DNA of 64,000 nt from Candidatus Moraniibacteriota bacterium (lineage in GTDB: Bacteria; Patescibacteriota; Minisyncoccia; Moranbacterales; UBA1568), in assembly GCA_963778555.1 (NCBI GenBank), contig CAVZUR010000004.1:244151-308150 (forward strand), written 5' to 3'. Under the pieces are notes generated by a model. That model saw only the letters and a program-made list of their open reading frames with translations. It searched no databases and was not told the origin of the DNA. Positions within the stretch are counted from its first letter, which is position 1, and each line of letters opens with the position of its first letter. Position numbers and translations under genes: made by a program. Below are positions 1-38,732 of the stretch, piece by piece.

Positions 1-1175
1 GCATCCCGTTCGACGCCGATTGCCCGCGCGGCGATACCGACGACTCCATGATCCTCGCCGATCGCCCGTTCAAGCCGACCCGTATTCTGGAGCCGATTGA
101 GTAGCGACAGGCTCTCCGATACCGCGCCCATCACCTCGAGAAAGTCGTTCTCCAGGTCGACAAGGTCTGTTTTGAGCGCTTTCAGATGCTCGTTCGAAAT
201 GTCTTTTTTCAACCCACCCGGCGTCAATATGCCACGCAGAAAGCGATGGCCCGTGAGCCGCTCATGCCACTGCATCACGCGCTCGCGAAGCCGCGTCCCC
301 TGACTCCCGCCAAAAGCGAGTCCCGTATCGAGCATGATGAACGCAAGATCATTGAAGTGATTCGCCAAACGTTCGAGCTCAGCACACACTGTGCGCAAAT
401 AGAGCGCGCGCTTGGGAACCGAAGCGTCAGCCAGCGTCTCGATCGCCTGACAGTAAGCGAGGGCATGATGGAATGAGCTGTCGCCCGAGATACGCTCCGC
501 CAAATCCACACGCTGCTCAGACGAAAGTACCTCAAACAATTTCTCGGTCCCCTTGTGGACATAGCCGAGCCGCGGCTCGAGGCGGAGAATCTCCTCGCCC
601 AGCACGCTGAAGCGGAAATGTCCGGGCTCGATGATACCGGCATGCACCGGGCCGACCGGTATCTCATATACGCCTTCACCCGCGTAGTGCTTGAAGGTGG
701 CCCATTCTTTCACTTTCGGTTCGGTGCTGCGCGCATCCCACCGGAACTCTTTTCTCAGCGGGTGGATATCTTTCGGGAAATTCTCGACGTGCAGCGTGAT
801 GCGTTCCGGTTCCGGGTGCCCCTCGGGAACAAGTCCGAAAAAAGTCAAAATCTCGCGCTCGTACAAGGAGAACTCCTGATCTTCCGGCGTCAGCGATGGA
901 AATGATCCCTGGTCGGAATGGATCGAGATATAGGGTATGAGAAACCGATCTTCCTTTGGAATGCCGAAAACATAATAGATTCGGAAACCCCGACCGCTGG
1001 CGCGTTCATCGGACGCGGCGACGGTCTTCAGTGGCAGGCGATGCGTTTTCTTGAGTGTCAGGATGACCCGAGCGATATCAGTCGCATTCACTTCAAACAC
1101 GACGCGGTTGCCCTCGATCGTCGGAATGAGTCCGGTGAGACCGAAGCGCTGGAGGAGATGGAGTGGATCAATCAT
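1..1175 (-). CDS. Group-4 [NiFe]-hydrogenase large-subunit-like protein (fused NuoC/NuoD, HycE/HyfG-like). Only the N-terminal ~390 aa lie in the window; the gene continues past the window start. The N-terminal NiFe-ligating CxxC is replaced by SxxxS (Ehr large-subunit-like).
   Basis: This ORF is absent from the ORF track because it runs off the window edge. I translated the minus strand by hand from the ATG whose complement ends at 1175, and the frame stays open to position 1. The protein reads MIDPLHLLQRFGLTGLIPTIEGNRVVFEV...YEIPVGPVHAGIIEPGHFRFSVLGEEILRLEPRLGYVHKGTEKLFE...ERISGDSSFHHALAYCQAIE.... GPVHAGIIEPGHFRF is the NuoD/HycE hallmark, and the N-terminal third is NuoC-like. The position where the L1 motif R-x-C-G-x-C-xxxH is expected reads R-I-S-G-D-S-S-F-H-H. 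Confidence 0.75.
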   Translation of the reverse strand, partial: MIDPLHLLQRFGLTGLIPTIEGNRVVFEVNATDIARVILTLKKTHRLPLKTVAASDERASGRGFRIYYVFGIPKEDRFLIPYISIHSDQGSFPSLTPEDQEFSLYEREILTFFGLVPEGHPEPERITLHVENFPKDIHPLRKEFRWDARSTEPKVKEWATFKHYAGEGVYEIPVGPVHAGIIEPGHFRFSVLGEEILRLEPRLGYVHKGTEKLFEVLSSEQRVDLAERISGDSSFHHALAYCQAIETLADASVPKRALYLRTVCAELERLANHFNDLAFIMLDTGLAFGGSQGTRLRERVMQWHERLTGHRFLRGILTPGGLKKDISNEHLKALKTDLVDLENDFLEVMGAVSESLSLLNRLQNTGRLERAIGEDHGVVGIAARAIGVERD

Positions 1176-1181
1176 ACGCGT

Positions 1182-2621
1182 TTAGCGAGAGAGATTCTGG
1201 TTGATAGACTGAAGCAACAGAACGAGCGGTTCGGGTAGATACCAGCTCAGCACGAGCAAGGTGCCAAAGAGGAGGACCACAGGGAGCTGGGTAAGGAAAT
1301 GGCTTTCGCCGCGTTCGATGCCCTCCGGTACCGGACCATAGGCCAGCGCGGTCGTAAATCGGAAGAGACCAAAAAACATGACGCCGAGCGCGAGCAGCAG
1401 CGCGCCAACCAACCACGGTGAAAACGCTATGCCCGCCGAGAGGATAAGCAGCTTGGTCGCAAAGAGCGCGAAGGGCGGCAGACCGGCGAGGATGAAAATA
1501 CCAGCGAAAAAAAGCGGACCTGAGAGCGGCAATGCTTCAAGGAGGCCGCTGACGTTTTTGAGCTTGGTCGAACTGTATCGCAGGAAGATATTTCCCGCCA
1601 AGAGAAACAGCATGGATTTAGCCAGAGCATGGTAGAGCATGTGCAACAATCCTGCCATCGTCCCCACGCCGCCCAATCCGAAACCGATTACGATGAGCCC
1701 CATATGCTCGATGCTCGAGTATGCGAGGAGACGCTTGTAATTTTTCTGGACAAAAATGATGAAGGCGCCGAGAAAAACTGAAAGCATTCCGAAAAAAATG
1801 AGCAGCCCACCCGTAAACTGATCGCCATCGAGCGCAACATCAGTGATGTGTTTCCAACGCAGTACCGCAAAGAGCGCGACATTTAGGAGCACTCCTGAAA
1901 GCAAGGCTGAGATGGGTGACGGCGCTTTGCTATGGGCATCGGGAAGCCAGGTATGGAGCGGTGCCAGACCGACCTTGGTCCCATAACCGATCAGGACGAG
2001 CACGAAGGCGATCTTGACGGCGTCCGGCGGCATGAGCGTAGCCGAAGCGACGAAACCGGCCCAGTCCGTCGCTCCTGAGCGGTCGCCCAAGAGCGCAACA
2101 TACAGCAGCGTTCCTAGGAGGCCAATGAGGAGACCGAGCGAATTGAGAATGAGGTATTTCCATGCCGCTTCAGTCGACGAAGGCTTGTTGTAGAAACTGA
2201 TGAGAAAAACGGTGGCAAGCGTCGTGGCCTCGATGGCGATCCAGGTGATGATTGGGCTCGCCGTCGAAACCGCCAGATACATCGCGAACAGAAAAAGCTC
2301 GAGTAACACGAAGAACTGGCGGATCCGGCGCGGACCAATGATTCCTTTGGCGCTCTCGGCCCGCAGATAGCCGACTGAATACAGACTGACAAAAAAGCCG
2401 ACAAGCGCGATGAGAAGTGTCAGGTAGCGAGCCAGGTCATCCAGCGCCAGTGCTACGGCGCTTTCTCCTGGTACACCCGAGACAACAAACCAGAGGGCAA
2501 GGGCGAGTTCCGCTCCGGCTACGAGGATGACTGTTGCTTCCATGAACCGCACCTTCTTCGTCGGCAAGAGGAAGCAGAGGAGAGCGGACAGGAGCGGCAG
2601 GAGGACAAGGGTGAGAAGCAT
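1182..2621 (-). CDS. Antiporter-like membrane subunit (NuoN/HyfF/MnhD family) of the complex-I-like module
   Basis: 479-aa polytopic membrane ORF with NuoN/Mrp-type antiporter sequence character (...HTWLPDAHSKAPSPISALLSG...). It sits in an operon with NuoH-, NuoK-, NuoL-, NuoB- and NuoCD-like genes. Confidence 0.7.
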   Translation of the reverse strand: MLLTLVLLPLLSALLCFLLPTKKVRFMEATVILVAGAELALALWFVVSGVPGESAVALALDDLARYLTLLIALVGFFVSLYSVGYLRAESAKGIIGPRRIRQFFVLLELFLFAMYLAVSTASPIITWIAIEATTLATVFLISFYNKPSSTEAAWKYLILNSLGLLIGLLGTLLYVALLGDRSGATDWAGFVASATLMPPDAVKIAFVLVLIGYGTKVGLAPLHTWLPDAHSKAPSPISALLSGVLLNVALFAVLRWKHITDVALDGDQFTGGLLIFFGMLSVFLGAFIIFVQKNYKRLLAYSSIEHMGLIVIGFGLGGVGTMAGLLHMLYHALAKSMLFLLAGNIFLRYSSTKLKNVSGLLEALPLSGPLFFAGIFILAGLPPFALFATKLLILSAGIAFSPWLVGALLLALGVMFFGLFRFTTALAYGPVPEGIERGESHFLTQLPVVLLFGTLLVLSWYLPEPLVLLLQSINQNLSR

Positions 2622-2630
2622 AGGTATAGC

Positions 2631-3290
2631 TTAGTCTTCAATCAGGTGACGCATCTCGCGTGTATCAAGCGAACCAAACTGGCGATAGACCAGATGCAGG
2701 AAAGCGTACGCGATGACCATCCAGATGAGAATATCGAAGAGGATGCCCATCTCCAGCACAAATGCCTGCTTCACTCCCAGAAAAATGGCGAAAAGGATAA
2801 TACTGTTCTCAAGCGCCAGGACGGCGATGATCTGAGCGAGCGCCCCCTGCCGATTGATGAGCAGAAAAATAGCGATCAGCACCATCGCGATATTGAAGAT
2901 GAACACGTCCGGCGTCACCGCGGCGATCGACCACAGCGGATGAAAGACCGTCGAGGCCGAAAAAAGGATGAGACCGAGCAGAAGGACGAGTGTTGCCGGC
3001 GTAGAAAGATAGCTCGCGCTGGCAACGAGGTGTCCGAAACGGTGCAAGAGGCGGGAAAAGAAATACGGCGCGACCAGCACTTTCGCTATGAAGGTGATGG
3101 CACCGATGGCTGCCAATCCGCGCTCCCCCTCCGTCAGGCCGATAATCATGAGCACCAGAGCGACGGCTGCCGACTGGACAGCGTACAGGCGAACCGTATA
3201 CCGCGTGCTCTTGACAAGATGTAGCAGCACCACCGCGACGAACGCTATGAGGTCGAGTGAGAGAGACAATTGGAGAAGTGGTGATTCCAT
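2631..3290 (-). CDS. HyfE/NuoK-like small membrane subunit
   Basis: Hydrophobic ~215-aa protein with a NuoK-like motif IIAVLALENSIILFAIFLG. It lies between the NuoH-like and NuoN-like genes. The true start is probably an internal Met (MESPLLQ...). Confidence 0.55.
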   Translation of the reverse strand: MESPLLQLSLSLDLIAFVAVVLLHLVKSTRYTVRLYAVQSAAVALVLMIIGLTEGERGLAAIGAITFIAKVLVAPYFFSRLLHRFGHLVASASYLSTPATLVLLLGLILFSASTVFHPLWSIAAVTPDVFIFNIAMVLIAIFLLINRQGALAQIIAVLALENSIILFAIFLGVKQAFVLEMGILFDILIWMVIAYAFLHLVYRQFGSLDTREMRHLIED

Positions 3291-3294
3291 AGTC

Positions 3295-4290
3295 TTAGGC
3301 CGTGAGTGAAACCGTGAGGACAACAGCGATCATACCAAGTACAAATGAGGTAAAAAGCAGGTCGGGAACCCGAAAAATTCGATATTTGGCCATGAGCGAC
3401 TCAAGACCCGCCAGAGCCATGAGAAAACAGAGCACCTTACCGGCAAAGACGAGCACCGGGATAAGCAGTGCGGAAACTGAGACGAATTCAGACGCGACGC
3501 CCCACGGAAAGAAAATATTCGCGCCGAGAGCGATGAAGATCAAAAGCTTGTTCGCGCTCGCCCACTCCATCAGGGCGAGCCGCTTCCCCGAGTACTCAAG
3601 CAGCATCGCTTCATGAATCATCGTGAGCTCGAGATGCGTGGACGGATTGTCCACTGGAAAACGCGCGTTCTCAGCGAGGAGCGCGATGGCAAAAGCGAGA
3701 AAAGCGACGAACAGCGGAAAGGCTGCAGTGACAGAAAGATTGCCGAGTTGCGTGACCATATCCAACAGATGCCCCGTTCCCGCGAGGAAAGAAGCCGGCA
3801 ACAACGAGAAGATCAGTCCGGCCTCAGCGAGCGCCGCGACCATCATTTCCCGGCTCGAGCCGAAGCCACCGAAACCGCTACCGGCGTCCATCCCGGCTAG
3901 AGCGAGGAAAAAGGTCATGAGCGCAAAAAGGTACACAATCACGATGAAATCTCCGGTCGCCGTGAGCGTCCAAGCGGGATTTCCCGGCACCGCGGGCGCG
4001 ACGGCCGTGACGAGCGGAACGGTTGCACCCAAAAGCAATGTAATGGAAAAGATGAGATAGGGCGCGAAGCGAGTGATCCAGGAAGCGTCTTGTGAAATCA
4101 CTTCGTCTTTCGCAAAGAGTTTGCGGAGATTGCGATACGGCTGAAGGACATCGGCTCCGACCCGGCCCTGCAGCCGCGCCTTGATGCGCCGAATGATGCC
4201 GATGCAAAGCGGTGACAAGACCGGGACGGCAATAATCTGGAGCAGGAAGAAAATGGTATTCATACGAGGGATCAGGCATACGTGGCCCAC
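3295..4290 (-). CDS. NuoH/HycD/HyfC-like membrane subunit
   Basis: N-terminus ...IGIIRRIKARLQGRVGADVLQPYRNLRKLFAKDEV matches the formate-hydrogenlyase subunit 4 / NuoH signature (R-K-I-x-A-R-x-Q-x-R-x-G-P, LQPY). It is polytopic. Confidence 0.7.
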   Translation of the reverse strand: MGHVCLIPRMNTIFFLLQIIAVPVLSPLCIGIIRRIKARLQGRVGADVLQPYRNLRKLFAKDEVISQDASWITRFAPYLIFSITLLLGATVPLVTAVAPAVPGNPAWTLTATGDFIVIVYLFALMTFFLALAGMDAGSGFGGFGSSREMMVAALAEAGLIFSLLPASFLAGTGHLLDMVTQLGNLSVTAAFPLFVAFLAFAIALLAENARFPVDNPSTHLELTMIHEAMLLEYSGKRLALMEWASANKLLIFIALGANIFFPWGVASEFVSVSALLIPVLVFAGKVLCFLMALAGLESLMAKYRIFRVPDLLFTSFVLGMIAVVLTVSLTA

Positions 4291-6330
4291 AGAAGCGCGC
4301 CGATGAGCGCCAGGGCGAAATAGAGGATATACATATTCACGTTACCGGTCTGCACGCGCCGCGCCTGCTGAGCGAGAAAATGGAGCGCCTGATTGACCGG
4401 ACGATAGAGACGCTCGTGATAAATGTCCCGGAGCCCTGTCTCGATGGAAGCTGAGCGGATGAAATACCGCGTTCGCTCGTCGTGATATTCAACGGTGGAT
4501 TGCTTGGTCGGCCGGAGAACACCTTGAAAGATCGTTACCAACGAACGAGAGAAACTGGCCGGCGTGATCTCACTCCGCTCTGAAAGCGGAAAACCACAGT
4601 CCCAGGTCGGACCAATCACAACAGTTCGTTTCTCGTGCCATGAAACGGACCGCGAGCACAACGAGTCCAAAGACCAGCGCGAGAAGCACTGCCACCCTCG
4701 CGAGTGGAAGCACATCAGCAAACGCGTGCCGCGTGGCGACAATCTCCAGAAATGGGAAGCGCAGCGTCACCGGGCTCGTGAGACCGATACTCGCGACGAT
4801 GCCGGTCAGACCCGACAACACGAATGAAGAGGCGAAACCGAGAAGGAGCGTCAGGAGTGATAGCACGCCCATCGGGAGGAGCATGAACCAGGAAACTTCC
4901 TTCGCCTCCCGGGCCAGAGCCGTCCAGGCCGCGCTAAAAAGGCCGTACCAAACACTTTGACGAAACAAGCGATCGCCAGACCACCGGTGAAAACCAGACT
5001 TGAGAGCGCCACTAAAAATGCGATTTTTACTGCCAGCGGCGCGCCGATGACGCCGGCAAACAGCACTTGGAACGTAAGCCATTCACTCACAAATCCATTG
5101 AAAGGCGGAAGGGCGGCGATGGCAAGCGATCCGGCAAGGAAGAATGCAGCGGTATACGGCATGACGCGCATCAGTCCGCCAAACGACTCCATATTGCGCG
5201 TGCCCGTAGCACTAGCGACAGCACCCGCGCCAAAAAAGAGCAACGCCTTGAAGATCGCGTGATTGACGAGATGATACAGCGCGGCCGCCAGCGCGAAGAG
5301 GGCAACGCGTTCCTGCCCGAGGGCGAAGAGCGTCAATCCCGCGCCGAAAGCAATCGTGATGATGCCGACGTTTTCCACCGTGCTGTAGGCGAGAAGGCGT
5401 TTCAGATCGCGTTCGGCATTGGCATACAGGATGCCGAGGATCGCAGACACGGATCCGATAATGAGAAAGACTACCCCCCATTCGATCCGCGCGCCCTGGA
5501 AGAAATCGAAGAAGAATCGGAACAGCATGAAGATCGCCGCCTTCACCATGATGCCCAGACATCAAGGCCGAGACGTGCGATGGGGCAGCCGGGTGCGCTT
5601 CCGGCAGCCAGATATGGAGCGGGACAAGACCCGCCTTGGTAGCAAACCCAATCAGCGCCGAACCGAGGATGAACATCTCGACCGCGGGCGGAAGCGTTCC
5701 GAAGGCGTCGCGCCACGCGTCGAATGAAAATGATCCCGTGGCCTGATACGCCAGCAGACAAGCCAGAATGATAAAAGCCGTCCCAAAATGAGTCATGAGG
5801 AAATAAAGGAAACCCGCCCGAACATTTTCGACTGTTTCCCGATCGAACACGACCAGAAAATATGATGCCAATGACATCACTTCCCACACCAACAGAAAGA
5901 ACAGCGCGTGGTTCGCGATCGGAATCAAGAGCAGGCTTCCGACAAAGAGATTATAGAAAAATCCGTACGCTCCTAGGCGGTCGCTGCCGATGAAATGCCG
6001 CTGATATGCATACCCATAGACCGAGGCCAGCATGACGATGAGCGAGGCGAGACCAAGAAAAAAAGCACCCATACCATCGATCCGGAAGGACAGGTCGAGG
6101 AGCGGGAGAGCGCTGGCGAATTGCCACGCGACTCCCCGCCCCTGGAACAGCACGGTTACGGACATCACGAGTCCCACCAGCGATCCGAGTACAGCGAAAC
6201 CATGGGCGAAAGTATTCGCCAGAACGCCCCCATCCGCGATCCTCGCTCCTGCCCAAAGCGATGCCAAAGCGCCGGCGAGAAACAACCCGACCAGGAGAAA
6301 GAGTGCGTTTACTGTCAAAAAAAATTCCAT
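4275..6330 (-). CDS. NuoL/HyfB/MrpA-like antiporter subunit, split over at least 3 frames (either an interrupted gene or sequencing indels)
   Basis: ORF 5212..6330 matches the N-terminal two-thirds of the NuoL family (...HIWLPEAHPAAPSHVSALMSG). The frame is lost right after SALMSG at about 5555. ORF 4851..5549 continues the homology in another frame (VMVKAAIFMLFR...). ORFs 4570..5082 and 4272..4742 carry the hydrophobic C-terminal continuation in two further frames. Confidence 0.65.
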
Positions 6331-6348
6331 AGTCGCTCGGCTTTCGGA

Positions 6349-6894
6349 TTACTCCTTCACGTCTTTCGGCCGGCGCTGATCGATCGTATCAAGGATCCCC
6401 AACAATGCCTTGAGGACAGTGGTCGGCGACGGAGGGTCACCAGGAATCTTGAAGTCTACTGGAACGATATCCCCGACCTGATCGTACACTGCGTACGAGC
6501 CGCGGTAGATGCTGCCGCCGATAGCACCGTCCCCGACCGCCACGACCCACTTCGGAGTTGGCATCGCCTCGTACGCATGACGCAGGCCATCTGCCATATT
6601 GCGGCTGACGGGACCCGTCACGAAGAGCATATCCGCATGCCGTGGTGACGCGACGAACTGCACGCCGAAACGTTCGATATCATAGTATGCGTTCGTCAGA
6701 GCCGTCAATTCCTGCTCTTCCGCATTGCTCGATCCGGCGGCGACCTGTCGAATGGCTATCGACCCACCGAAAATCTGAGTGGCGCGTTTCTTGATCGCCT
6801 GACCGAGCACCTCGGTGTCGCTGCTTTCACGGATATCCCGCTCGCTTTTGACCTGAAGCGGCGTCATGAAGATTTTCTTCAGCATGCGGTACAT
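6349..6894 (-). CDS. NuoB/HycG-like small subunit that lacks all four [4Fe-4S]-ligating cysteines (Ehr small-subunit-like)
   Basis: Clear NuoB-family core: YDIERFGVQFVASPRHADMLFVTGPVSRNM...MPTPKWVVAVGDGAIGGSIY...IVPVDFKIPGDPPSP. Relative to NuoB, the CCxxE motif reads SSNAEE, GACAxxGG reads GDGAIGG, and PGCPP reads PGDPP. Confidence 0.75.
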   Translation of the reverse strand: MYRMLKKIFMTPLQVKSERDIRESSDTEVLGQAIKKRATQIFGGSIAIRQVAAGSSNAEEQELTALTNAYYDIERFGVQFVASPRHADMLFVTGPVSRNMADGLRHAYEAMPTPKWVVAVGDGAIGGSIYRGSYAVYDQVGDIVPVDFKIPGDPPSPTTVLKALLGILDTIDQRRPKDVKE

Positions 6895-6971: not shown

Positions 6972-7616
6972 TCATCCCTTTTTGTCCATTTCAGCCTCTT
7001 CCAAAGCCTCGCGTTTCATCTGCCTCCGGTCTCGCCAGTATTCGAATGCGCCCGGTAGAATGGAAAGGAAGATAATAAGCAGAACAATCGGTAGCAGATA
7101 CTTGTCGATGTCCTTAATCAGCCCACCGAGGTAATACGCGAGGGTTGTTAGGCCAACGGACCAGAGGAGTGCTCCAATAAAGTTAAAGAAGGCAAATGTC
7201 CCATAATGCATCCGCGCCACGCCAGCTACAATCGGGGCAAAGGTCCGAACAATTGGAATGAAACGAGCCAGTACGATAGTTTTTCCGCCGTAGCGCTCAT
7301 AGAACGCCTGAGCTTTCCGAATATGGGATTTCCGAAATAAGAGGGAATCCTCGCGCGAAAAGATTTTCGGTCCGACGTACGCACCGAACCAATACCCCAC
7401 CATGTTTCCCGTAAAGGCGGCCACGAAGAGGATGATGAGTAGGAGCGGCAAGGAGAAGAATCCTTGCGCCGCAAGCACCCCGGCGACAAAGAGCAGGCTA
7501 TCACCTGGGAAAAAGAACCCGAGGAACAGCCCTGTCTCGGCGAAAACAATAGCGAAAAGCCCGATGTACCCAATCGTCTTGATTGCTGAAATCATGTCGA
7601 TACCGAAGAATTCCAT
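6972..7616 (-). CDS. DedA/SNARE-associated family membrane protein
   Basis: 214-aa ORF with the typical DedA signature (...GLFLGFFFPGDSLLFVAGVLAAQG...RFIPIVRTFAPIVAGVARMHY...). Confidence 0.8.
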   Translation of the reverse strand: MEFFGIDMISAIKTIGYIGLFAIVFAETGLFLGFFFPGDSLLFVAGVLAAQGFFSLPLLLIILFVAAFTGNMVGYWFGAYVGPKIFSREDSLLFRKSHIRKAQAFYERYGGKTIVLARFIPIVRTFAPIVAGVARMHYGTFAFFNFIGALLWSVGLTTLAYYLGGLIKDIDKYLLPIVLLIIFLSILPGAFEYWRDRRQMKREALEEAEMDKKG

Positions 7617-7629: not shown

Positions 7630-9762
7630 TTAGATCGAGTATGCCTCGTCTTTCAGTTCATTATAGAGCATATTGGCGACTTTGCGAGGCAGCATCGCAT
7701 TCTCCAATAGCTCATCGAGTATCCGCTCCTCGCTCTTGAAAAGGGCTGAGCGACCAAATGATTCATTCATATGAGCCAACTCTGCCCCGATCCGCGTACC
7801 CGCTGCTTCCCGTTTTTGTTCCGCATCAACACGTAATCCCTCATACAACGCGACCACCGAATCACTTGACGCCGAATCTCCATAGAGTCCCGGTGACCGA
7901 TCTCCAAGCGACTTCAATCGGCGGAGTACTTTTGCCAAGACGACTTCCTGGGCCCGATAATAGCGATACTCCTCGAGCGCTTCCTGCTTAGCTGTTTTCG
8001 GCCGGAAGTTGTTCCGGAACCAGAGAACCAGCGTCTCAAACCAGTCTTGCTGAAAACGCTCTGCATGACCCGACACTTGCTCCCTCCCCTCTTCAACGCG
8101 GCTCGTTTGGATGGCAATCTTATTCAGGATCTCCTTATATTCTGACTCTGAAACTTCTTGATAGATAAAAAGTTCCCGAAGGAAACGCTTTTCCATACCC
8201 AGGGCATACATCTGGAGTGCCCGACCCATATCACCCGGCGTGGCAGCGAACAACGTCTTGCAGACTTCCGCCGACCTTTCATACCGCTCCGTGTACTCGC
8301 TTTTCAGTCGCGTAAAGATATCGTCTTTCACATAGCCTTTCGCGTGGAAATCTTCAAGCTTCTCTAGCGCTTCTTGATACACCAAGGCCGCACATTCGTT
8401 ATACTCCAGCGTCTCCAGCGCTGTGAGATCCGACAGCTTCATTCTTTTAATCATCGCGCCGATCGAGGTCGCCTTGATGCAAAGCGTGAAATAGATACAG
8501 CCGATAGTAATGGCCGCGATAAATTCCTTCACTGTGAACTCATAGCTCCAACCGGGAAACGTGAGCGAATCCGGAATGAGCAGCACCATGGTGACTGCGA
8601 GTGCACCGCGTAGACTCCCCCATGCGAGCAGATGCTGCCAACTCAAAGGAATCGGTTCTTCCTTCTTCAGACGATTGACTATAGCCACGACTGGATAGAT
8701 AGACAGCGCGCGCCCGACAAGCACGACAGCAACGGTGAGCAACATCGGCCAGACGAACTGATCGAAGTGTATGGGAAGATCAGCGAAGAGGAGTCCCATC
8801 AAGATGAAGACAAGAGAGTTCGCCACGAAGGCAAAGTAACCCCAGAATTTTTCCATGTATTCCTCGACCCGTGGCGATATTTTGAATCGGCCGTAATTAC
8901 CGATGACCATTGAAGCCATCACTGTCGCAATGATTGATGAGAATTTAATATCTTGGCCAAACAGGACAAAATGATGCGAAATAAGCTCGGAGAGTATGAA
9001 GGTCAGGTGTGCCACGAGCATCGTCAACGTAATCTCAATATGCTCATTATCCTTCACCTTGCCGATGATCTTGGAAAAAACAAAGCCCATGAAGAGACCG
9101 AAGGCACCGCCGCCCACGACCATAGTCGTAAACATGAACACGCCCTCGAGAACACTACCGAGACCGGTGAATCCTGATAGTGCTACCTCAAGGACAATGA
9201 GGAAGAGTGCTAGCGAGGTTCCATCATTGAAGAGGCTCTCGCCTTCGAAAATGAGCGAGAGGCGCCTCGGCACACCGAATTCTTTGAAAAGGGCCAAGAC
9301 TGCTACCGGATCAGTCGCCGAGATGAGCGTGCCAAAGATAAGGGTCGCCATGAAGGGCACCGGAAGACCGATAAACGCCAAGCCGAGATAGAGAGCACCG
9401 GCGACAAAAAACGCTGAGGCAATGAGACTCACGATGGACAGCCACGAGATCGAGCGGACATTCTCAGCCATCTCGCGCATGTTCATGTTATATGCCGACT
9501 CGAAAATGAGCACCGGGAGAAACACGAAGAAAAGAAGCTCAGGCGTCAACTGGAAGCTTTTGATGAAGTGAAAGAGCGGGAAGTCCGTCAGCGGAACGAG
9601 TGCTGATCCGACGATGACGAGCAGCACTGTATACGGCAGCTTCAGCCGTCCAGCGACAAAATATGTCCCGATAGAGATCAGCATGAGGACCGCGATTGCG
9701 AGTACGACTTCGAGCGACATAGAGGCAGTTTTTAGCAAACAAAAGAGGCTCTCGCGAGCCAA
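7630..9762 (-). CDS. CPA1-family Na+/H+ (cation/proton) antiporter of NhaP type with a long cytoplasmic C-terminal domain
   Basis: 710-aa ORF. The N-terminal ~400 aa are polytopic with CPA1 motifs (FLPVLIFESAYNMN, ATDPVAVLALFKEFGVP, LIFEGESLFNDGTSLALF). The C-terminal ~300 aa are soluble. Confidence 0.8.
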   Translation of the reverse strand: MARESLFCLLKTASMSLEVVLAIAVLMLISIGTYFVAGRLKLPYTVLLVIVGSALVPLTDFPLFHFIKSFQLTPELLFFVFLPVLIFESAYNMNMREMAENVRSISWLSIVSLIASAFFVAGALYLGLAFIGLPVPFMATLIFGTLISATDPVAVLALFKEFGVPRRLSLIFEGESLFNDGTSLALFLIVLEVALSGFTGLGSVLEGVFMFTTMVVGGGAFGLFMGFVFSKIIGKVKDNEHIEITLTMLVAHLTFILSELISHHFVLFGQDIKFSSIIATVMASMVIGNYGRFKISPRVEEYMEKFWGYFAFVANSLVFILMGLLFADLPIHFDQFVWPMLLTVAVVLVGRALSIYPVVAIVNRLKKEEPIPLSWQHLLAWGSLRGALAVTMVLLIPDSLTFPGWSYEFTVKEFIAAITIGCIYFTLCIKATSIGAMIKRMKLSDLTALETLEYNECAALVYQEALEKLEDFHAKGYVKDDIFTRLKSEYTERYERSAEVCKTLFAATPGDMGRALQMYALGMEKRFLRELFIYQEVSESEYKEILNKIAIQTSRVEEGREQVSGHAERFQQDWFETLVLWFRNNFRPKTAKQEALEEYRYYRAQEVVLAKVLRRLKSLGDRSPGLYGDSASSDSVVALYEGLRVDAEQKREAAGTRIGAELAHMNESFGRSALFKSEERILDELLENAMLPRKVANMLYNELKDEAYSI

Positions 9763-9810
9763 ATTTTATACTGCTCTATCCTACTCCTCCCCTATTTTTT
9801 GTCAAAGTAA

Positions 9811-9830
9811 AACCCCGCCAACTGGCGGGG
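9811..9830 (-). terminator. Rho-independent terminator downstream of rplL
   Basis: On the minus strand the sequence reads CCCCGCCAGTTGGCGGGG followed by TTTTACTTTGACAAAAAAT. It lies just 3' of the true rplL stop. Confidence 0.5.
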
Positions 9831-9862
9831 CATACTGTCCATAAGACTAAGTGCTTGCCTTA

Positions 9863-10262
9863 CTTCAAAGTCACGGTCGCGCCGGCTTCCTCGAGCTTCT
9901 TCTTCATCGTTTCGGCATCGGCTTTGGAGACTTTCTCCTTGATGACTTTCGGAGCGGCATCCACCATGATCCTTGGCTTCCTTCAGACCCAAGCCAGTCA
10001 CTTCGCGGACAGCCTTGATGGCGTTGATCTTCTGCTGGCCGGCAGCCGTAATCTCGACATCGAACTCAGTCTTTTCCTCGACAGCTTCGGCAGCGGCAGC
10101 CGGTGCGGCCCCCATCATCATGGGAGCGGCAGCCGAAACGCCGAACTTGTCCTCGAGAACTTTCACGAGCTCGGACAAATCCAGCACGCTCATTTTCTCG
10201 ATCTCGGCGACGAGCTTCTCGAACTTCTCCGGCACCACGACGTCTTTCTTCTCTTCTGACAT
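9863..10262 (-). CDS. rplL: 50S ribosomal protein L7/L12 (one frameshift near 9950)
   Basis: The ORF-track protein [47 protein letters not shown]...[38 protein letters not shown] then turns to garbage. I read the C-terminus in the next frame as ...[34 protein letters not shown]. Confidence 0.8.
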
Positions 10263-10281
10263 ATGTGTACTGATTACGTGA

Positions 10282-10800
10282 TTACTGAATTGAAAAATGA
10301 AACTTTTTTACGCTGATTTCTGATCCCGCACGGCGCTCAAGCACCCGGACAAACCCGCTGAGATTACCCGAGAGGGTCCGGACAAAGCCAGCAATCGGCG
10401 CCTGCAGCGTGCCCACGAGCATGGCTCGGAGTTCATCACGCGATGGGAGTTTGGCCAGCGCCTTGACCGCGTCGATCGTCAAGGATTCCGACCCGAGCGA
10501 TCCCCCGACGATCGGAGAGGGTCGATTCTTTGTTCGCTTTGATGAAGTCAGCGATGGTCTTGGCTGCTGAAACTTCGTCCTCGAGAACGCGACTCCGACC
10601 TGGCCGTCGAGTCCGCGAGCATCGACCTTCACACCCGCCTCATCAAGCGCCCGATTGAGGAGTGTCTTCTTCAGCACCTGCCAGCCGGAACCGGTTTCGC
10701 GGAGGCTGCGGCGCAGAGTCGTGATATCTTTCACCGAAACGCCCTTGAAATTGGCGAAGACCAGAGCCTTCGACTCCTTTGCTCTTGTTCGTCACCTCGG
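10282..10800 (-). CDS. rplJ: 50S ribosomal protein L10 (N-terminal part out of frame)
   Basis: The ORF 10282..10734 C-terminal region (…[38 protein letters not shown]...) is L10-like. The expected N-terminus lies upstream in another frame, and the L10-L7/L12 gene order is canonical. Confidence 0.65.
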
Positions 10801-10859
10801 CAATGAGCGTGTGTCTTCTGTTGATTTATTCTGCATAATAGATCATTAGAAAAAGTCTG

Positions 10860-11375
10860 CAGTGACCGCAGACTAAAAAATCTCCTATTTCCAGGAGACT
10901 GAACAATGAAGCCACAGGCTTGGGAACTGTTCCTCTAAGGATTTACCTGTCTGCGCGACGGACCTTAGGTCTCTGGATGTCCTAATGATCTACGGAGTAT
11001 TCAGTTGTAGAGCCATGGCTACCGGAAAATCGGACTTCGTCAAGCCTTCGGCGTTACTCGGCCATCGGAGCGTTTCGGCCGACTGCGGCACAGCTTCTGC
11101 GAGCTGGAGCAGCTTCTCGCGGTTGACCTCGGCTGGTACCGCTGTCACGCTTTGACCGGGACTCTTTCTCTTCTTCGCTTCGGATGCCTCAACTTCCGGC
11201 TGTCACGGGACTTCTGGTGCATACGCCTTCGCGATGATCTTTTTTCGATTTCTTCCTCGATCACGCCTTCGCGGATGAGCAGATTCGTCACGCGGCGGAG
11301 GTCTGGGCACCCTGTCCGATCCAATACAGAATGCGTTCTTTTTTCAGAAAGTCGGTTTTCTTGAATGCGGATCAT
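10860..11375 (-). CDS. Hypothetical protein, apparently frameshifted (begins MIRIQENRLSEKRTHSVLDRTG...)
   Basis: ORF 11145..11375 plus an in-phase continuation in another frame (...IEEEIEKKIIAKAYAPEV... / ...TAVPAEVNREKLLQLAEAVPQSAE...). I see no recognisable domain. Confidence 0.2.
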
Positions 11376-11693
11376 AGCTGCCCAAGAATCTCCACATGGC
11401 GATGCCCGGGGCTTTGGTGTGTCTCCTGCAGAACGACCCGGAAAGAGGCATGATTTCTCTTGCCGAGCGGTTGAAACGGATTGACGAGCATACGGGCTTC
11501 TGAATATGCGAAAAAATGATATACGAAGACCATTCTAGCCTGATTCTCTGAGGCTGTCAACCCGTTAGATTCCGACAAAAACTGAGTCTTACTCAAGCAC
11601 AAATACACTGCTGCCGCGTTTACCACCAGAGATACTCTTGCAAAAACTCTAACGGGATTATCAATTATGCGCCACGGACTTTCCCACCCTCCC

Positions 11694-13981
11694 CTATCTG
11701 GTCAAGCCGGATCGAGAGAAGCTGGGAAACGCCATCAGCTGGCCCATCGTGACGCCGTAGAGGAGTCCGGCCTGGGCCATCGTCTCGCGATTGTGCGTGA
11801 TGGCGATGAACTGGGTATGCAGCGAGAGTTCGCGAGCATCGTGCGAAACGCCTGGAATTGGCCTCGTCGAGCGCCGCTTCCACTTCATCGAGTACCGCAA
11901 ACGGCGGCGGATTGTGCGAGATGATCGCGAAGAAGAGCGCCAAGCGACGTCAGCGAGCGTTCGCCGCCGGAAAGCATCGAGAGATTGGTGATTTTCTTCC
12001 CGGGAGGACAGGCGAATATCTCGATGCCGATCTCATCGCTTCCTCCGTTCTCTTCATCCTCCGTATCATCCTCATCTGACTTCGGCTCTATCCCTCCGCC
12101 TGTCTGACGACTGTTACTTTGACGATTTCCAGGCTCCGCCTTGCCACCGCCGAAGATGATCCTGAAATACGTCTCGAATTTCTGACGGATTTCCTTGAAA
12201 GCCTCGTGGAATACCTTGTCAATTTTCTGTTCCATCTCTCTGATGACCGTACGCAAAGATTCGGTCGCCTGCTTCAGATCGGCCGATTCACGCGTCAAAG
12301 AACTCGAAACGCTTCTCTGTTTCCTGATATTCCTCCACCACGAGCGGATCAATCGTACCGATATGCTCGACTTCCACTTTGAGACGGGCGATCTCGCGCT
12401 CAAGCTTTTCCCGTTCTACGGAAGTACCGTCATATTTCAGCTCTCTCCGCCGCATCGAGAGCTCGTCTCGCGATCGAGCGCCATCAGGTCTTCTTCGCGC
12501 ACCTCGACCCGCGCCAAACGCACTTTCACTTCGTTCAAGTCGGTCTTTCATACCCGTCAGCCGATAACCCTTCTCGCGCCACTCTTTTTCCTTGGCGAAA
12601 AAGGTCTCGCTGGCTCGACCCGAGCTCGCCTCGCGGAGCGCCTGAAGGGACTGTTCTTTCGAAACGATGGTTTTCTGCAGCACCTCCAGTTTCGTCATTC
12701 AAGTCCTTCTTTCTCTTCCGCCAATCGATGCCAAACGCTCATCGCTTAGCTTCCTCTCTTCAGCCGGCAGCGCGATGATCTTCTTCTCCTTCACGCTCCC
12801 CTGGCCGGCCTTCTCATCGAGATCGTGGAGTTTTTGCTTGATACCCTTCGCGAATTCGCGGATATCCTGCAGATCTTCCAATTTCTCGGCGTTCCGGATG
12901 CGATCGATGAGTTCCGCCTGATGCTTCTGGATCTCTTCGAGCGCCCTGCGGACATAATTGAGATCGACGGGAATGACGCGTATCACTTCCTCTCTCTTCT
13001 GCTTTTCTTTTTCGATCTCGATCTTGCCGTCGACGATACTTCTGTCCCGCAAAATATATTCGCGTCATCGCGCGAAGCTGTTCAGTTCGCGGCTGATCAC
13101 GTCTTCCTGACTCTGATCTTCCATCATCGCCGAGGCTTCCGTCACCTCGCGCTCGAGCGTATTGGTCTCCACTTCCAGATCGAACACCTGCTTCGCATGC
13201 CCTTTCACGTTCGCCTACCAGCGTACCGCGTTCACCCTGGAAATTATCCCAGAGGAAACTGTAGAGCAGCACCTGTTTGACGCGGAGTTTCTCCGCCACA
13301 TCTTTTCCCTGCGATGCCTTTTCCGCCTGCCGGCGCAGGTTCTTCAGATGCGGCTCGATTTCCGCCGTCAAACTGTCCACGCGCACCAGATTCTCGCGCG
13401 TGCTCTCCAGTTTCCGGAGCGCGCGTTCCTTCTCGATCTGATACTGTTTCACGCCGGCAGCATCCTCGAAAATGGAGCGGCGCTCGGCCGGCGTCGCGTT
13501 CAGCACGGCATCCGACATGCCCTGTGTGATGACGCAGTAGCTGTCCTTGCCGATACCGGCTTTCGCCAGCATATCCACGATATCCATCAGGCGCACGCGG
13601 GCACCATTGATGAGATATTCGCTCTCGCCGCTCCTGTAGATCTTCCTCGTGATGGAGACTTCCGCGAATTCGATCGGAATACGCTTGTCGGAATTGTCGA
13701 AGTACAACGTCACGGATGCCGTACCGAGGCGCGCCTTCTTGTCCGTACCGGCGAAAATGACGTCCTCTGATTTTTTTCCACGCAGATTCTTCAGCGACTG
13801 CTCGCCGATCGCCCAGCGGATAGCATCGGCCACGTTCGATTTGCCGCTGCCGTTGGGACCGACGATGGCCGTAATACCGCATTTCCCGCCGCCGGCGATA
13901 TCGCAGTCGGGCAAGAAAATCCAATGCCGTCTTGTTGGCGAAGGACTTGAATCCGCTGATTTCGAGTTTCTTCAGATACAT
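11694..13981 (-). CDS. smc: SMC-family chromosome-segregation ATPase, unusually short (~760 codons end to end), fragmented by at least 6 frameshifts
   Basis: N-terminus MYLKKLEISGFKSFANKTALDF, then in the next frame ...ITAIVGPNGSGKSNVADAIRWAIGEQSLKNLRGKKSEDVIFAGTDKKARLGTASVTLYFDN... (Walker A). Coiled-coil pieces lie in ORFs 12699..13052 and 12288..12698. C-terminus ...LSGGERSLTSLG...FAVLDEVEAALDEANSRRFA...QFIAITHNRETMAQAGLLYGVTMGQ (signature and Walker B motifs). Confidence 0.7.

Positions 13982-36042: not shown

Positions 36043-38728
<2,686 letters not shown>

Positions 38729-38732
<4 letters not shown>

What the first reader, a model, noticed from the sequence alone, without database searches (positions are those of the whole stretch)
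1..6894. Six-subunit complex-I / group-4-hydrogenase-like membrane complex whose 'catalytic' subunits have lost every metal-ligating cysteine
The operon encodes NuoB-like, NuoL-like, NuoH-like, NuoK-like, NuoN-like and fused NuoCD-like subunits, in that order on the minus strand. This is the Hyc/Hyf/Mbh architecture without a NuoI/HycF ferredoxin subunit in the window. In the NuoB-like protein the four Cys that bind the proximal [4Fe-4S] cluster are replaced: CC becomes SS, the second-site Cys becomes GDGA, and the third-site Cys becomes PGDPP. In the large subunit the N-terminal NiFe motif R-x-C-G-x-C reads R-I-S-G-D-S-S. So the module cannot bind Ni-Fe or pass electrons by the usual route. 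It looks like an energy-converting-hydrogenase-related (Ehr-type) or Mrp-like ion-translocating machine built on a hydrogenase scaffold. That family has been proposed from comparative genomics but is functionally uncharacterised. Two separately recorded points add context. The locus sits next to an NhaP-type Na+/H+ antiporter, and its NuoL-like subunit is broken into several frames.
Basis: partly seen in the sequence, partly recalled or inferred. Interest (0 to 1): 0.8.

Follow-up and report, generated by a model that had tools for sequence, protein, structure and literature searches.

The report
Cofactor-free hydrogenase-like complex in CPR bacterium
A tiny uncultured bacterium (Moranbacteria group) carries a six-gene relative of membrane hydrogenases and respiratory complex I in which every metal-binding cysteine has been replaced, so it is most likely an ion-moving membrane machine that no longer handles electrons; the gene family was already known, but the loss of its last iron-sulfur site seems not to have been described.

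Summary
Window 1-6894 (minus strand) holds a tight six-gene operon: small subunit (NuoB-like), HyfB/NuoL-like, NuoH-like, HyfE-like, HyfF/NuoN-like and a fused NuoCD-like large subunit, which is cut by the window edge. Residue-level alignments to MbhJ, HycE and Nqo4 show that all four [4Fe-4S] ligands and all four NiFe ligands are replaced. Complete loci of relatives have no ferredoxin subunit downstream.

It belongs to the Ehr family (energy-converting-hydrogenase-related; Geobacter ehrABCDLS). More precisely, it sits in the CPR-specific Ehr clade, whose large subunit was reported to lack the cysteines in 2020.

What is new here:
- Non-CPR Ehr keep the four-Cys cluster in the small subunit (65 of 79 loci), and the whole CPR clade has lost it.
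- The replacement residues are invariant in 120 homologues.
- Purifying selection is strong (dN/dS below 0.1).
- All ion-channel residues of the membrane arm are kept.

Best reading: a redox-inert ion-translocating device that works like an Mrp antiporter. This mechanism is inferred, not shown.

The breaks in the NuoL-like gene are probably assembly errors, because rplL, smc and dnaE are also frameshifted.

Verdict: new variant of a known kind; interest 0.6.

The parts
6349..6894 (-). Small subunit (EhrS / NuoB / HyfI-like), 181 aa, no cysteine. The former [4Fe-4S] ligand positions are S56, E59, G123 (next to D122) and D153.
   Evidence: Pfam Oxidored_q6 E 2.8e-22. Alignment to MbhJ 6cfw_J, E 3.5e-25. 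AF2 model pLDDT 91.3; Foldseek to MbhJ gives TM 0.88 and rmsd 1.7 A. The replacement motifs are invariant in 120 homologues.
4272..6330 (-). Antiporter-like subunit (EhrA / HyfB / NuoL-like), about 685 aa. It is read in four frame pieces because of single-base indels near 5556, 4927 and 4633.
   Evidence: NCBIfam hydrogenase-4 subunit B on all four pieces. tblastn and DNA alignment to the intact 685-aa orthologue in L001. No internal stops and dN/dS 0.03-0.22 in each piece. Conserved E150, K232, H239, K263, H353, H357, K361 and E416, in L001 numbering.
3295..4263 (-). NuoH / HyfC / HycD-like subunit (EhrB), 322 aa from the Met that matches the orthologues.
   Evidence: Pfam NADHdh E 8.2e-38. 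HycD 7z0s_D E 8.1e-40. The start was fixed by alignment to L001. E148, E156, E207, D214, H219, E221, H226, E227, E242 and E297 are conserved.
2631..3290 (-). HyfE-like membrane subunit (EhrC), 219 aa, with a NuoK-like C-terminal half.
   Evidence: NCBIfam HyfE E 2.3e-13. Weak Pfam Oxidored_q2 match, 0.0017. The gene is 219 aa in L001, L002, L084 and L086 and 215-218 aa in the other two called loci. K81 and E172 are conserved.
1182..2621 (-). Second antiporter-like subunit (EhrD / HyfF / NuoN-M-like), 479 aa.
   Evidence: NCBIfam hydrogenase-4 subunit F E 2.7e-119. MbhH 6cfw_H E 2.2e-35. E131, K216, H223, H327, H331 and K335 are conserved, and the TM12 position is always K or E.
1..1175 (-). 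Fused NuoC-NuoD-like large subunit (EhrL / HyfG-like). The window holds residues 1-391 of 528.
   Evidence: Pfam Complex1_30kDa plus Complex1_49kDa. HycE 7z0s_E E 1.9e-41. The full-length 100% identical protein P0001 ends NLSYSGNDL. There is no conserved Cys; S230, G231, D232, S234 and H237 are invariant.
6972..7616 (-). DedA / VTT-domain membrane protein directly upstream on the same strand. This is context, not a core part.
   Evidence: Pfam VTT_dom E 4.9e-19. It holds the same position in L001, L085 and L086 only.
7630..9762 (-). NhaP / CPA1-type Na+/H+ antiporter upstream on the same strand. This is context.
   Evidence: NCBIfam TIGR00831 E 5.4e-70. The adjacency is shared only with L001. 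A promoter-like site at 9805-9778 follows a terminator-like hairpin at 9831-9812, and no terminator lies between this gene and the operon.

Best explanation
Identity (confidence about 0.95): this is the six-subunit Ehr complex (energy-converting-hydrogenase-related) of a Moranbacteria-type CPR/Patescibacteria bacterium. It belongs to a CPR-specific clade in which the NiFe site of the large subunit is gone, as in all Ehr, and the single [4Fe-4S] site of the small subunit is gone as well. No ferredoxin-like subunit or domain exists. The complex therefore has no recognisable redox cofactor site.

Mechanism (inferred, about 0.4): the complex no longer turns over electrons. It works as a redox-independent ion translocator.
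- The two antiporter-like subunits (HyfB-like and HyfF-like), the NuoH-like subunit and the HyfE-like subunit keep the full chain of buried Glu, Lys and His residues. In complex I, Mbh and Mrp this chain carries H+ or Na+.
- The complex would exchange or interconvert H+ and cation gradients, like an Mrp antiporter. That would serve pH and Na+ homeostasis and the F-type ATP synthase in a cell without a respiratory chain.
- The cofactor-less peripheral arm is retained under strong selection. It would act as the cytoplasmic cap of the NuoH-like channel.
- The former NiFe/FeS chamber is now lined by invariant Ser, Asp, Glu and His residues: large subunit E183, H186, S230, D232, S234, H237; small subunit E59, E60, E62, D122, D153. 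It would serve as an ion or proton entry, gating or sensing site.

Shown: the anatomy, the loss of the ligands, the conservation and the selection. Inferred: ion transport, its direction and the role of the chamber.
For: - Ligand losses are seen at residue level.
- 108 of 120 closest small-subunit homologues have zero Cys, and the replacement motifs (GSSNAEEQEL, GDGA, PGDPP) are invariant.
- No Cys column is conserved in 116 large subunits.
- No 2x[4Fe-4S] ORF or fused domain occurs in any CPR-type locus.
- All loci whose small subunit lacks the cluster ligands and whose large subunit is Ehr-type form one clade in a neighbour-joining tree of the large subunit. All other Ehr carry CCCC.
- The fold is intact: AF2 pLDDT 91.3, TM 0.88 to MbhJ.
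- Purifying selection against the L001 orthologue: dN/dS is 0.06 for the small subunit, 0.08 for the large subunit, 0.03 for the NuoH-like subunit and 0.10 for the HyfE-like subunit. dS is saturated, so these values are rough.
- Within the CPR clade the small subunit is the most conserved subunit (60% mean identity). The rank order of subunits is the same as in FeS-bearing Ehr.
- The membrane-arm charged residues are 94-100% conserved. They include the TM5 Glu, the TM7 Lys, the TM12 Lys/Glu and the acidic residues of the NuoH loop.
- The gene neighbourhood concerns ion energetics. NhaP and DedA lie upstream here and in L001. In a Wildermuthbacteria contig the ATP synthase operon ends 10 nt before the operon, and atpC lies nearby in a Magasanikbacteria contig.
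- The operon is kept in genomes of about 1.2 Mb.
Against: - No transport assay, expression data or structure exists for any Ehr. Its physiological role in Geobacter has never been investigated (PMC7894505).
- Mrp antiporters work without any peripheral arm. The very strong conservation of the arm, and of a chamber motif shared with FeS-bearing Ehr, suggests that something more specific than capping happens there, for example ligand binding.
- Only a handful of clade-specific substitutions separate CPR Ehr from FeS-bearing Ehr. A wholesale change of function is therefore not evident.
- The small Mrp subunits (MrpE, F, G) are absent.
- The neighbourhood links are lineage-restricted. DedA occurs in four loci and NhaP in two.
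- The former ligand positions vary among more distant cluster-less relatives, so no defined ion-binding tetrad can be named.
Confidence: 0.45

Rival explanations
1. Ligand- or chemistry-coupled pump. The conserved Ser/Asp/His chamber at the junction of the large subunit, the small subunit and the NuoH-like subunit binds and converts a small non-redox substrate, or binds a metabolite. That event drives or gates ion translocation, in the way CO2 hydration is coupled to NDH-1 or Dab modules.
For: The chamber motifs (SGD[ST]S..H and NLSYSGNDL) are invariant and are shared between CPR and FeS-bearing Ehr across many phyla. The peripheral subunits are among the most conserved and are under strong purifying selection. 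Few residues changed when the cluster was lost.
Against: No candidate substrate can be named. No conserved accessory gene, such as a carbonic anhydrase or a hydrolase, sits next to the operon. No known catalytic motif was recognised by Pfam or NCBIfam.
Confidence: 0.2
2. Gradient-consuming machine. The complex uses the H+ or Na+ gradient, made by reverse ATP synthase or taken from a host, to drive a conformational task other than ion exchange. Examples would be energising another membrane process or regulating the ATP synthase.
For: The operon abuts the ATP synthase operon in L084. A DedA-family protein is adjacent in the Moranbacteria lineage. From general knowledge, DedA proteins are PMF-dependent lipid-carrier flippases. 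CPR literature notes that no consumer or generator of PMF besides the ATP synthase is known in some genomes (PMC6851277).
Against: The adjacency is not conserved across the clade. No physical partner is indicated. This is pure inference.
Confidence: 0.15
3. Still a redox enzyme. A cluster is bound by non-cysteine ligands (Asp, Glu, Ser), or an external ferredoxin, flavodoxin or dehydrogenase docks and delivers electrons directly to a substrate in the chamber, as proposed for FDH-Ehr in Margulisbacteria.
For: The commonest CPR pattern keeps one Cys at ligand position 2 ([T/D]-C-[D/E/G]-[D/N]). Single Asp or Ser ligands to [4Fe-4S] clusters exist in other proteins (general knowledge). An FDH-Ehr partnership has been hypothesised for non-CPR Ehr (PMC6349859).
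Against: Three or all four ligands are replaced. In this lineage none is Cys and one is Gly. Position 2 tolerates Ala, Val or Ile in relatives. The large subunit lacks the NiFe Cys. It also lacks the complex I quinone ligands, with His38 replaced by I182 and Tyr87 by G231. No fdhA, nuoE/F or ferredoxin gene adjoins any CPR locus.
Confidence: 0.08
4. Decaying relic. The operon is a non-functional remnant of a hydrogenase, and the broken NuoL-like gene shows it is being lost in this genome.
For: The HyfB-like gene has three frameshifts here. The HyfF-like gene has one in L001. All cofactor sites are lost.
Against: Essential genes in the same window are frameshifted too: rplL, smc in at least four frame pieces, and dnaE. 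The breaks are therefore best explained by assembly errors. Each HyfB-like piece has no stop and dN/dS 0.03-0.22. All other subunits have dN/dS of 0.10 or less. The replacement residues are invariant in 120 homologues. The operon is complete in all six relatives' loci with called genes that span the whole operon.
Confidence: 0.04

Closest known systems
CPR-specific Ehr clade (Jaffe et al. 2020, BMC Biol, PMC7304191)
   Same: Same thing at the level of the large subunit. That paper reported a monophyletic CPR group inside the Ehr subclade of group-4 hydrogenase relatives. It lacks the metal-binding cysteines and was judged unable to interact with H2. The window protein is 52-82% identical to Moranbacteria, Magasanikbacteria, Wildermuthbacteria and Howlettbacteria members.
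   Different: The main text of that paper deals only with the large subunit. It does not mention the small subunit, the operon composition or the membrane arm. Its supplementary figures were not read. The loss of the small-subunit [4Fe-4S] ligands and the absence of any ferredoxin module are added here.
Ehr complexes of other phyla (Geobacter sulfurreducens EhrA-D, L and S, order ehrABCDLS from memory of Coppi 2005; Ehr of Nitrospira, Margulisbacteria, Acidobacteria, Firmicutes and Thaumarchaeota)
   Same: The six homologous subunits are the same. So are the large-subunit motifs ER[IV]SGD[ST][ST]xxH and PDFPLINKSxNLSYSGNDL, and the conserved membrane residues. Function is unknown in all of them.
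   Different: Those Ehr keep the four-Cys proximal cluster (65 of 79 loci). Some add a NuoI-like 2x[4Fe-4S] domain or gene. Most have the gene order A-B-C-D-L-S, whereas the CPR type has S-A-B-C-D-L. A few non-CPR lineages (Rokubacteria, Binatia, Methylomirabilota, Chloroflexia) also place S first.
Hydrogenase-4 / formate hydrogenlyase-2 (E. coli HyfA-J) and FHL-1 (HycB-G; PDB 7Z0S)
   Same: These are the best profile matches for the membrane subunits (HyfB, HyfE, HyfF) and for the large subunit (HycE E 1.9e-41). The large subunit is a NuoC-NuoD fusion as in HycE/HyfG.
   Different: There are no NiFe cysteines, no small-subunit cluster, no HyfA/HyfH/HycB/HycF ferredoxins and no formate dehydrogenase partner. 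All equivalog scores fall far below the NCBIfam cut-offs.
Membrane-bound hydrogenase Mbh of Pyrococcus furiosus (PDB 6CFW)
   Same: It is the closest solved small subunit (MbhJ E 3.5e-25, TM 0.88). MbhH, MbhM and MbhL are homologues.
   Different: Mbh has NiFe, three [4Fe-4S] clusters and an Mrp-like Na+ module (MbhA-G) that is absent here.
Mrp multisubunit cation/proton antiporter (MrpA-G; PDB 7QRU)
   Same: It is a redox-independent device built from the same antiporter-like subunits with the same Glu/Lys chain. This is the proposed functional analogue.
   Different: Mrp has no NuoH-, NuoB- or NuoCD-like subunits. It has MrpB, E, F and G, which are absent here. The window complex is not a member of this family.
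Respiratory complex I (Nuo / Nqo; PDB 4HEA)
   Same: Homologues of the NuoB, C, D, H, K and L/M/N modules are present, and the overall L-shaped architecture is expected.
   Different: There is no N2 cluster. The quinone ligands are absent (Nqo4 His38 becomes I182 and Tyr87 becomes G231). NuoA, E, F, G, I and J are missing.

Membership tests
Ehr (energy-converting-hydrogenase-related complex) | Large subunit homologous to group-4 [NiFe] hydrogenase large subunit / NuoD but lacking the L1 and L2 Ni-Fe cysteines. | tested here: met
   HycE E 1.9e-41. RVCGICGFAHS aligns to RISGDSSFHHA. The C-terminus reads NLSYSGNDL instead of DPCxxCxxR.
Ehr (energy-converting-hydrogenase-related complex) | Six-gene core: NuoL-like (EhrA), NuoH-like (EhrB), HyfE-like (EhrC), second antiporter-like (EhrD), large (EhrL) and small (EhrS) subunits. 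| tested here: met
   All six are present and tightly packed. Subunit names follow Geobacter. The order here is S-A-B-C-D-L, not the A-B-C-D-L-S order of most other Ehr loci.
Ehr (energy-converting-hydrogenase-related complex) | Family-specific large-subunit motifs shared with Ehr of other phyla (HAGIIEPGHFRF, ER[IV]SGD[ST][ST]xxH, PDFPLINKSxNLSYSGNDL). | tested here: met
   The scan motifs HAGIIEPG and PDFPLINK brought in 591 confirmed loci in the species-representative genome collection. The Ser/Gly versions of the L1 and L2 motifs were then seen in 79 of the 86 operons read (76 of 83 loci) in the alignment.
Ehr (energy-converting-hydrogenase-related complex) | Small subunit with the four-Cys proximal [4Fe-4S] site. 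This is typical of Ehr outside the CPR. | tested here: not met
   The window reads S56, E59, G123 and D153 with zero Cys. 65 of 79 loci, none of them in the CPR-type clade, read C-C-C-C. The failure defines a subclade rather than excluding the family, because tree placement and all other features agree.
CPR-specific Ehr clade (Jaffe 2020) | Large subunit groups with CPR sequences, apart from other Ehr. | tested here: met
   A neighbour-joining tree of 86 large subunits puts the window with Moranbacteria, Magasanikbacteria, Wildermuthbacteria, Daviesbacteria and Saccharibacteria loci. The closest named database hits are Moranbacteria / Moraniibacteriota. The tree is distance-based and has no support values.
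Group 4 [NiFe] hydrogenase (Hyf, Hyc, Mbh, Ech) | L1 (RxCGxCxxxH) and L2 (DPCxxCxxH/R) cysteines that bind Ni-Fe. | tested here: not met
   True NiFe motifs are seen in related loci L037, L042, L062, L070, L071, L079 and L083, so the alignment register is validated.
Group 4 [NiFe] hydrogenase (Hyf, Hyc, Mbh, Ech) | Small subunit proximal [4Fe-4S] cluster plus a NuoI/HycF-type 2x[4Fe-4S] subunit. | tested here: not met
   There are no Cys ligands. No CxxCxxCxxxC ORF or fused domain occurs in the operon of any CPR-type locus. The genes after the large subunit in relatives are unrelated.
Group 4 [NiFe] hydrogenase (Hyf, Hyc, Mbh, Ech) | Hyp maturation genes and a large-subunit endopeptidase in the genome. 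| tested here: inconclusive
   None appears among about 40 ORFs of the 64-kb window scanned with Pfam. The rest of the genome could not be searched.
Respiratory complex I (NDH-1) | Cluster N2 cysteines in NuoB and the quinone ligands His38 and Tyr87 (T. thermophilus Nqo4 numbering) in NuoD. | tested here: not met
   There is no Cys in the small subunit. The ungapped alignment to Nqo4 residues 26-87 places I182 at His38 and G231 at Tyr87.
Respiratory complex I (NDH-1) | NuoA, NuoJ, NuoI and an electron-input module (NuoEFG or equivalent). | tested here: not met
   The operon holds only six genes, here and in relatives.
Mrp-type cation/proton antiporter | MrpA/MrpD-type subunits with the conserved TM5 Glu, TM7 Lys and TM12 Lys/Glu. 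| tested here: met
   HyfF-like: E131, K216 and a K/E at TM12. HyfB-like: E150, K232 and E416.
Mrp-type cation/proton antiporter | Seven-subunit MrpA-G composition without a peripheral arm (MrpB, E, F and G present). | tested here: not met
   No MrpB, E, F or G homologues are present, and NuoH-, NuoB- and NuoCD-like subunits are. It may work like an Mrp antiporter but is not a member of the family.

The most novel reading that the evidence does not exclude
A complete complex-I/hydrogenase-fold machine that works with no redox cofactor at all. In CPR bacteria the former NiFe/[4Fe-4S] chamber would have become a carboxylate- and serine-lined ion or ligand site that gates or drives ion flow through the NuoH-like and antiporter-like subunits. 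This would make it a main H+/Na+ gradient converter for cells without a respiratory chain. Almost nothing else changed when the cluster was lost. The core activity of the whole, widespread Ehr family may therefore not depend on electron transfer either.
Probability: 0.35. Interest if true: 0.8.

Novelty: new variant of a known kind. Interest (0 to 1): 0.6.

Why it matters
Ehr complexes are encoded in hundreds of species across bacteria and archaea (at least 591 loci in one scan), and no function has ever been measured for any of them.

The CPR version is a natural experiment. The last iron-sulfur site has been removed, yet the peripheral arm and the ion-channel residues stay under strong selection. 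This gives a clean test of whether a complex-I-type coupling machine can run without redox chemistry. It would also show what the conserved chamber of Ehr does.

The question also bears on CPR bioenergetics, which is still open: how do ultra-small fermentative cells with an ATP synthase but no electron transport chain manage their membrane potential and Na+/H+ balance?

Tried and rejected
- Exact-sequence look-up of the window's own large subunit (P0001) found no contig on record. Context was taken from relatives instead.
- Cluster look-up gave no accession or name for the source genome.
- Marreiros et al. 2013, the paper that defined Ehr, is not held. Whether it mentions cluster-less small subunits could not be checked.
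- Searches for Patescibacteria + Ehr, Ehr + NuoB + cysteines, CPR + Hyf, and Saccharibacteria energetics found no description of the small-subunit loss.
- DedA or NhaP as a conserved partner: rejected. DedA adjacency is limited to four loci and NhaP to two.
- A NuoI-like gene just off the window: rejected.
- A defined new metal site formed by the replacement residues: not supported. Among 50%-identity representatives the four positions vary (SEGD, NEGD, DAAD, DVES, DADN, DIDD and others), and position 2 accepts Ala, Val or Ile.
- Clade-specific compensatory changes in the large or NuoH-like subunits: only three to five positions each, with no obvious pattern.
- Rfam and tRNA scans of the window added nothing relevant, only one tRNA-Ser.
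- Pseudogene reading of the NuoL-like gene: rejected, because essential genes are frameshifted too and dN/dS is low.

Full report
**What is in the window.**
The minus strand of 1-6894 carries six tightly packed genes. Pfam and NCBIfam identify them as follows.
- 6349-6894: a NuoB-family small subunit.
- 4272-6330: a hydrogenase-4 subunit B (NuoL-like) gene, read in four frame pieces.
- 3295-4263: a NuoH/HyfC-like gene.
- 2631-3290: a HyfE-like gene whose C-terminal half is weakly NuoK-like.
- 1182-2621: a hydrogenase-4 subunit F (NuoN/M-like) gene.
- 3-1175: a fused NuoC-NuoD-like large subunit that runs off the window.

All NCBIfam scores are far below the equivalog cut-offs. These are relatives of Hyf and Nuo subunits, not orthologues. 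Upstream on the same strand lie a DedA/VTT protein (6972-7616) and a CPA1/NhaP Na+/H+ antiporter (7630-9762), preceded by rplL and rplJ.

**The cysteine losses are real.**
phmmer alignments to solved structures give the register directly.
- Against MbhJ (6CFW), GSCNGCDIE aligns to GSSNAEEQE, GACPTGG to GDGAIGG, and PGCPPRP to PGDPPSP.
- The four [4Fe-4S] ligands are therefore S56, E59, G123 and D153. The protein has no cysteine at all.
- Against HycE (7Z0S), RVCGICGFAHS aligns to RISGDSSFHHA.
- A database protein 100% identical over the 391 window residues (P0001, 528 aa) supplies the missing C-terminus. It ends PDFPLINKSLNLSYSGNDL where hydrogenases have DPCxxCxxR.
- Against Thermus Nqo4, the ungapped stretch 26-87 places I182 at the quinone ligand His38 and G231 at Tyr87. 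The complex I quinone site is absent too.
- An AlphaFold2 model of the small subunit is confident (pLDDT 91.3). It superposes on MbhJ with TM 0.88 and rmsd 1.7 A. The fold is kept without the cluster.

**The organism, and the missing ferredoxin subunit.**
The closest homologues of both peripheral subunits come from Moranbacteria/Moraniibacteriota and other CPR (Patescibacteria) MAGs. Six relatives' loci with called genes were examined:
- the complete 1.2-Mb genome CP064975 (L001), which shares the synteny rplJ-rplL-NhaP-DedA-operon;
- a Magasanikbacteria contig;
- a Wildermuthbacteria contig;
- a further Moranbacteria contig;
- two unnamed contigs.

All six show the same six genes and nothing ferredoxin-like after the large subunit. 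A motif scan found no CxxCxxCxxxC ORF inside any CPR-type operon and no fused NuoI-like domain on the small subunit.

**Family placement.**
Two motifs of the large subunit (HAGIIEPG and PDFPLINK) picked up at least 591 confirmed loci in a one-genome-per-species collection. They come from Nitrospirota, Rokubacteria, Acidobacteriota, Verrucomicrobiota, Firmicutes, Chloroflexota, Thaumarchaeota, methanogens and CPR.
- Almost all have the same six subunits.
- In most non-CPR loci the order is A-B-C-D-L-S, as I recall it for Geobacter ehrABCDLS (Coppi 2005). PMC7894505 gives the subunit names. A few non-CPR lineages also place S first.
- In the CPR-type loci the order is S-A-B-C-D-L.
- The Cys-less large-subunit motifs ER[IV]SGD[ST][ST]xxH and NLSY[SA]G[NT]D[LR] are shared by CPR and non-CPR members.
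- Seven loci carry genuine NiFe motifs (ERICGxC and ELCYxCxDR), which validates the register.

The locus is therefore an Ehr complex. Jaffe et al. 2020 already reported that CPR large subunits form their own clade inside Ehr and lack the metal-binding cysteines (PMC7304191). The main text of that paper says nothing about the small subunit or the rest of the complex.

**What goes beyond the published picture.**
- The small subunit keeps all four cluster cysteines in 65 of 79 loci. None of these 65 lies in the CPR-type clade.
- The CPR-type loci read [T/D]-C-[D/E/G]-[D/N] or, as here, S-E-G-D.
- In a neighbour-joining tree of the large subunit, all loci that combine a cluster-less small subunit with an Ehr-type large subunit fall in one clade (distance tree, no support values). 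The Chloroflexota locus L079 also has a cluster-less small subunit, but it sits with the NiFe group.
- Some non-CPR Ehr additionally carry a NuoI-like 2x[4Fe-4S] gene or an N-terminal fusion. This agrees with Supplementary Note 4 of PMC6349859. CPR-type loci never do.
- In an exhaustive search of 1.84 billion cluster representatives, about 25 of the 150 best matches to the small subunit lack three or four of the ligands. The replacements are varied but polar or acidic.

**Is it functional?**
- In the 120 closest small-subunit homologues, the replacement segments V-A-A-G-S-S-N-A-E-E-Q-E-L, G-D-G-A-I and I-P-G-D-P-P are essentially invariant. 108 of the 120 have no Cys.
- In 116 large subunits no ligand column holds Cys, while S230, G231, D232, S234, H237 and the C-terminal motif are invariant.
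- Against the L001 orthologues, dN/dS is 0.06 (small), 0.08 (large), 0.03 (NuoH-like) and 0.10 (HyfE-like). This is comparable to NhaP (0.035). dS is saturated, so the values are rough.
- Within the CPR clade the small subunit is the most conserved of the six (60% mean pairwise identity). The rank order of the subunits matches that of FeS-bearing Ehr.
- The membrane arm keeps every hallmark residue.
  - HyfF-like: TM5 Glu (E131), TM7 Lys (K216), His/Lys relay (H327, H331, K335) and a Lys or Glu at TM12.
  - HyfB-like (L001 numbering): E150, K232, K263, H353, H357, K361 and E416.
  - NuoH-like: E148, E156, E207, D214, H219, E221, H226, E227, E242 and E297.
  - HyfE-like: K81 and E172.
- Only a few positions differ systematically between CPR and FeS-bearing Ehr.

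**The broken NuoL-like gene.**
Three single-base indels near 5556, 4927 and 4633 split the gene. Each piece is free of stops and has dN/dS 0.03-0.22 against the intact L001 gene. Essential genes in the same window are also broken.
- rplL has a one-base insertion near 9967.
- smc is in at least four frame pieces between 13320 and 11677.
- dnaE is split at 18115/18150.
- L001, in turn, has a split HyfF-like gene.

The simplest reading is an error-prone assembly, not decay of this gene.

**How it most likely works.**
- Shown: a conserved, selected six-subunit complex with an intact ion-conducting membrane arm and a peripheral arm that has no recognisable site for Ni-Fe, Fe-S or quinone.
- Inferred: it moves ions without redox chemistry, most likely exchanging or interconverting H+ and cation gradients like an Mrp antiporter.
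- Inferred: the peripheral arm caps the NuoH-like channel, and its acidic, serine-rich chamber acts as an entry, gating or sensing site.
- Context fits membrane energetics. NhaP and DedA lie upstream here. In Wildermuthbacteria the ATP synthase operon ends 10 nt before the operon. No terminator-like hairpin separates NhaP, DedA and the operon. These links are restricted to particular lineages.
- I put about 0.4 on this mechanism.
- The main rival (0.2) is that the conserved chamber binds or converts a non-redox ligand that drives or gates transport. The arm and its motifs are more conserved than a mere cap would need, and they are shared with FeS-bearing Ehr.
- A gradient-consuming role other than ion exchange (0.15), residual redox chemistry (0.08) and a decaying relic (0.04) follow.

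**Verdict.**
The family and its CPR clade are known. The complete loss of cofactor sites across the CPR clade, combined with strong conservation, appears not to be described in the literature I could search. Marreiros et al. 2013 was not available. Novelty: new variant of a known kind. Interest: 0.6.

Noticed in passing
window 9792-10262, 11677-13320 and 17318-20807: Essential genes are frameshifted. rplL has a one-base insertion near 9967. smc is split into at least four frame pieces. dnaE is split between its PHP domain (17318-18115) and the rest (18150-20807). This points to an indel-rich, probably long-read, assembly.
   Followed up: yes
L079 (Chloroflexota MAG JALYXG010000207), 8360-12364: The large subunit keeps all four NiFe cysteines (ERICGAC and ELCYACLDR). 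Its small subunit reads E-C-E-D at the [4Fe-4S] ligand positions. This would be a hydrogenase-type active site without its proximal cluster.
   Followed up: no
L084 (Wildermuthbacteria, JAUSER010000118), 1-4891: The F-type ATP synthase genes (delta, alpha, gamma, beta, epsilon) run straight into the Ehr operon. Epsilon ends at 4345 and the small subunit starts at 4355. An atpC gene also lies about 4 kb upstream of the operon in L002.
   Followed up: partly
L047 and L080 (Nitrospirota); L009: L047 and L080 each carry two complete Ehr operons in tandem on one contig. L009 has a CPR-type operon followed by a second, more divergent one.
   Followed up: no
L030, L031, L032, L037, L044, L056, L057, L061, L065, L067, L071, L076 (small-subunit ORFs): In Firmicutes and Acidobacteria Ehr or NiFe relatives, the small-subunit reading frame has an N-terminal extension of about 100 aa with two CxxCxxCxxxC motifs (a NuoI-like fusion). 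L015, L020, L062 and L064 have a separate small 2x[4Fe-4S] gene between the large and small subunits.
   Followed up: partly
L004, L008, L009, L010, L013: CPR-type operons with a cluster-less small subunit sit in MAGs labelled Bdellovibrionales, Firestonebacteria, Fibrobacteria, Thermoleophilia and Endomicrobiales. This reflects either mis-binned CPR contigs or lateral transfer out of the CPR.
   Followed up: no
window 38133-51087: A type IV pilus gene cluster on the minus strand. It holds two or more pilin-like genes with N-terminal methylation motifs, a prepilin peptidase (39910-40716), PilC (44470-45687), two T2SSE ATPases (45799-48608) and PilM (50011-51087).
   Followed up: partly
window 9778-9831: A strong terminator-like hairpin (9831-9812) lies after rplL, and a promoter-like site (9805-9778) lies just before the NhaP gene. 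No terminator-like site lies between NhaP, DedA and the Ehr genes, so the eight genes may form one transcription unit.
   Followed up: partly
window 25873-27165: The ThyX-like ORF is 430 aa long, but the Thy1 domain covers only residues 16-212. The C-terminal half is unassigned. It may be a fusion, or a read-through caused by an assembly error.
   Followed up: no
HyfB-like C-terminal region (L001 residues about 575-580; window about 4590-4610): A W-D-C-G motif in the C-terminal extension of the NuoL-like subunit is nearly invariant in both CPR and non-CPR Ehr. Its role is unknown.
   Followed up: no
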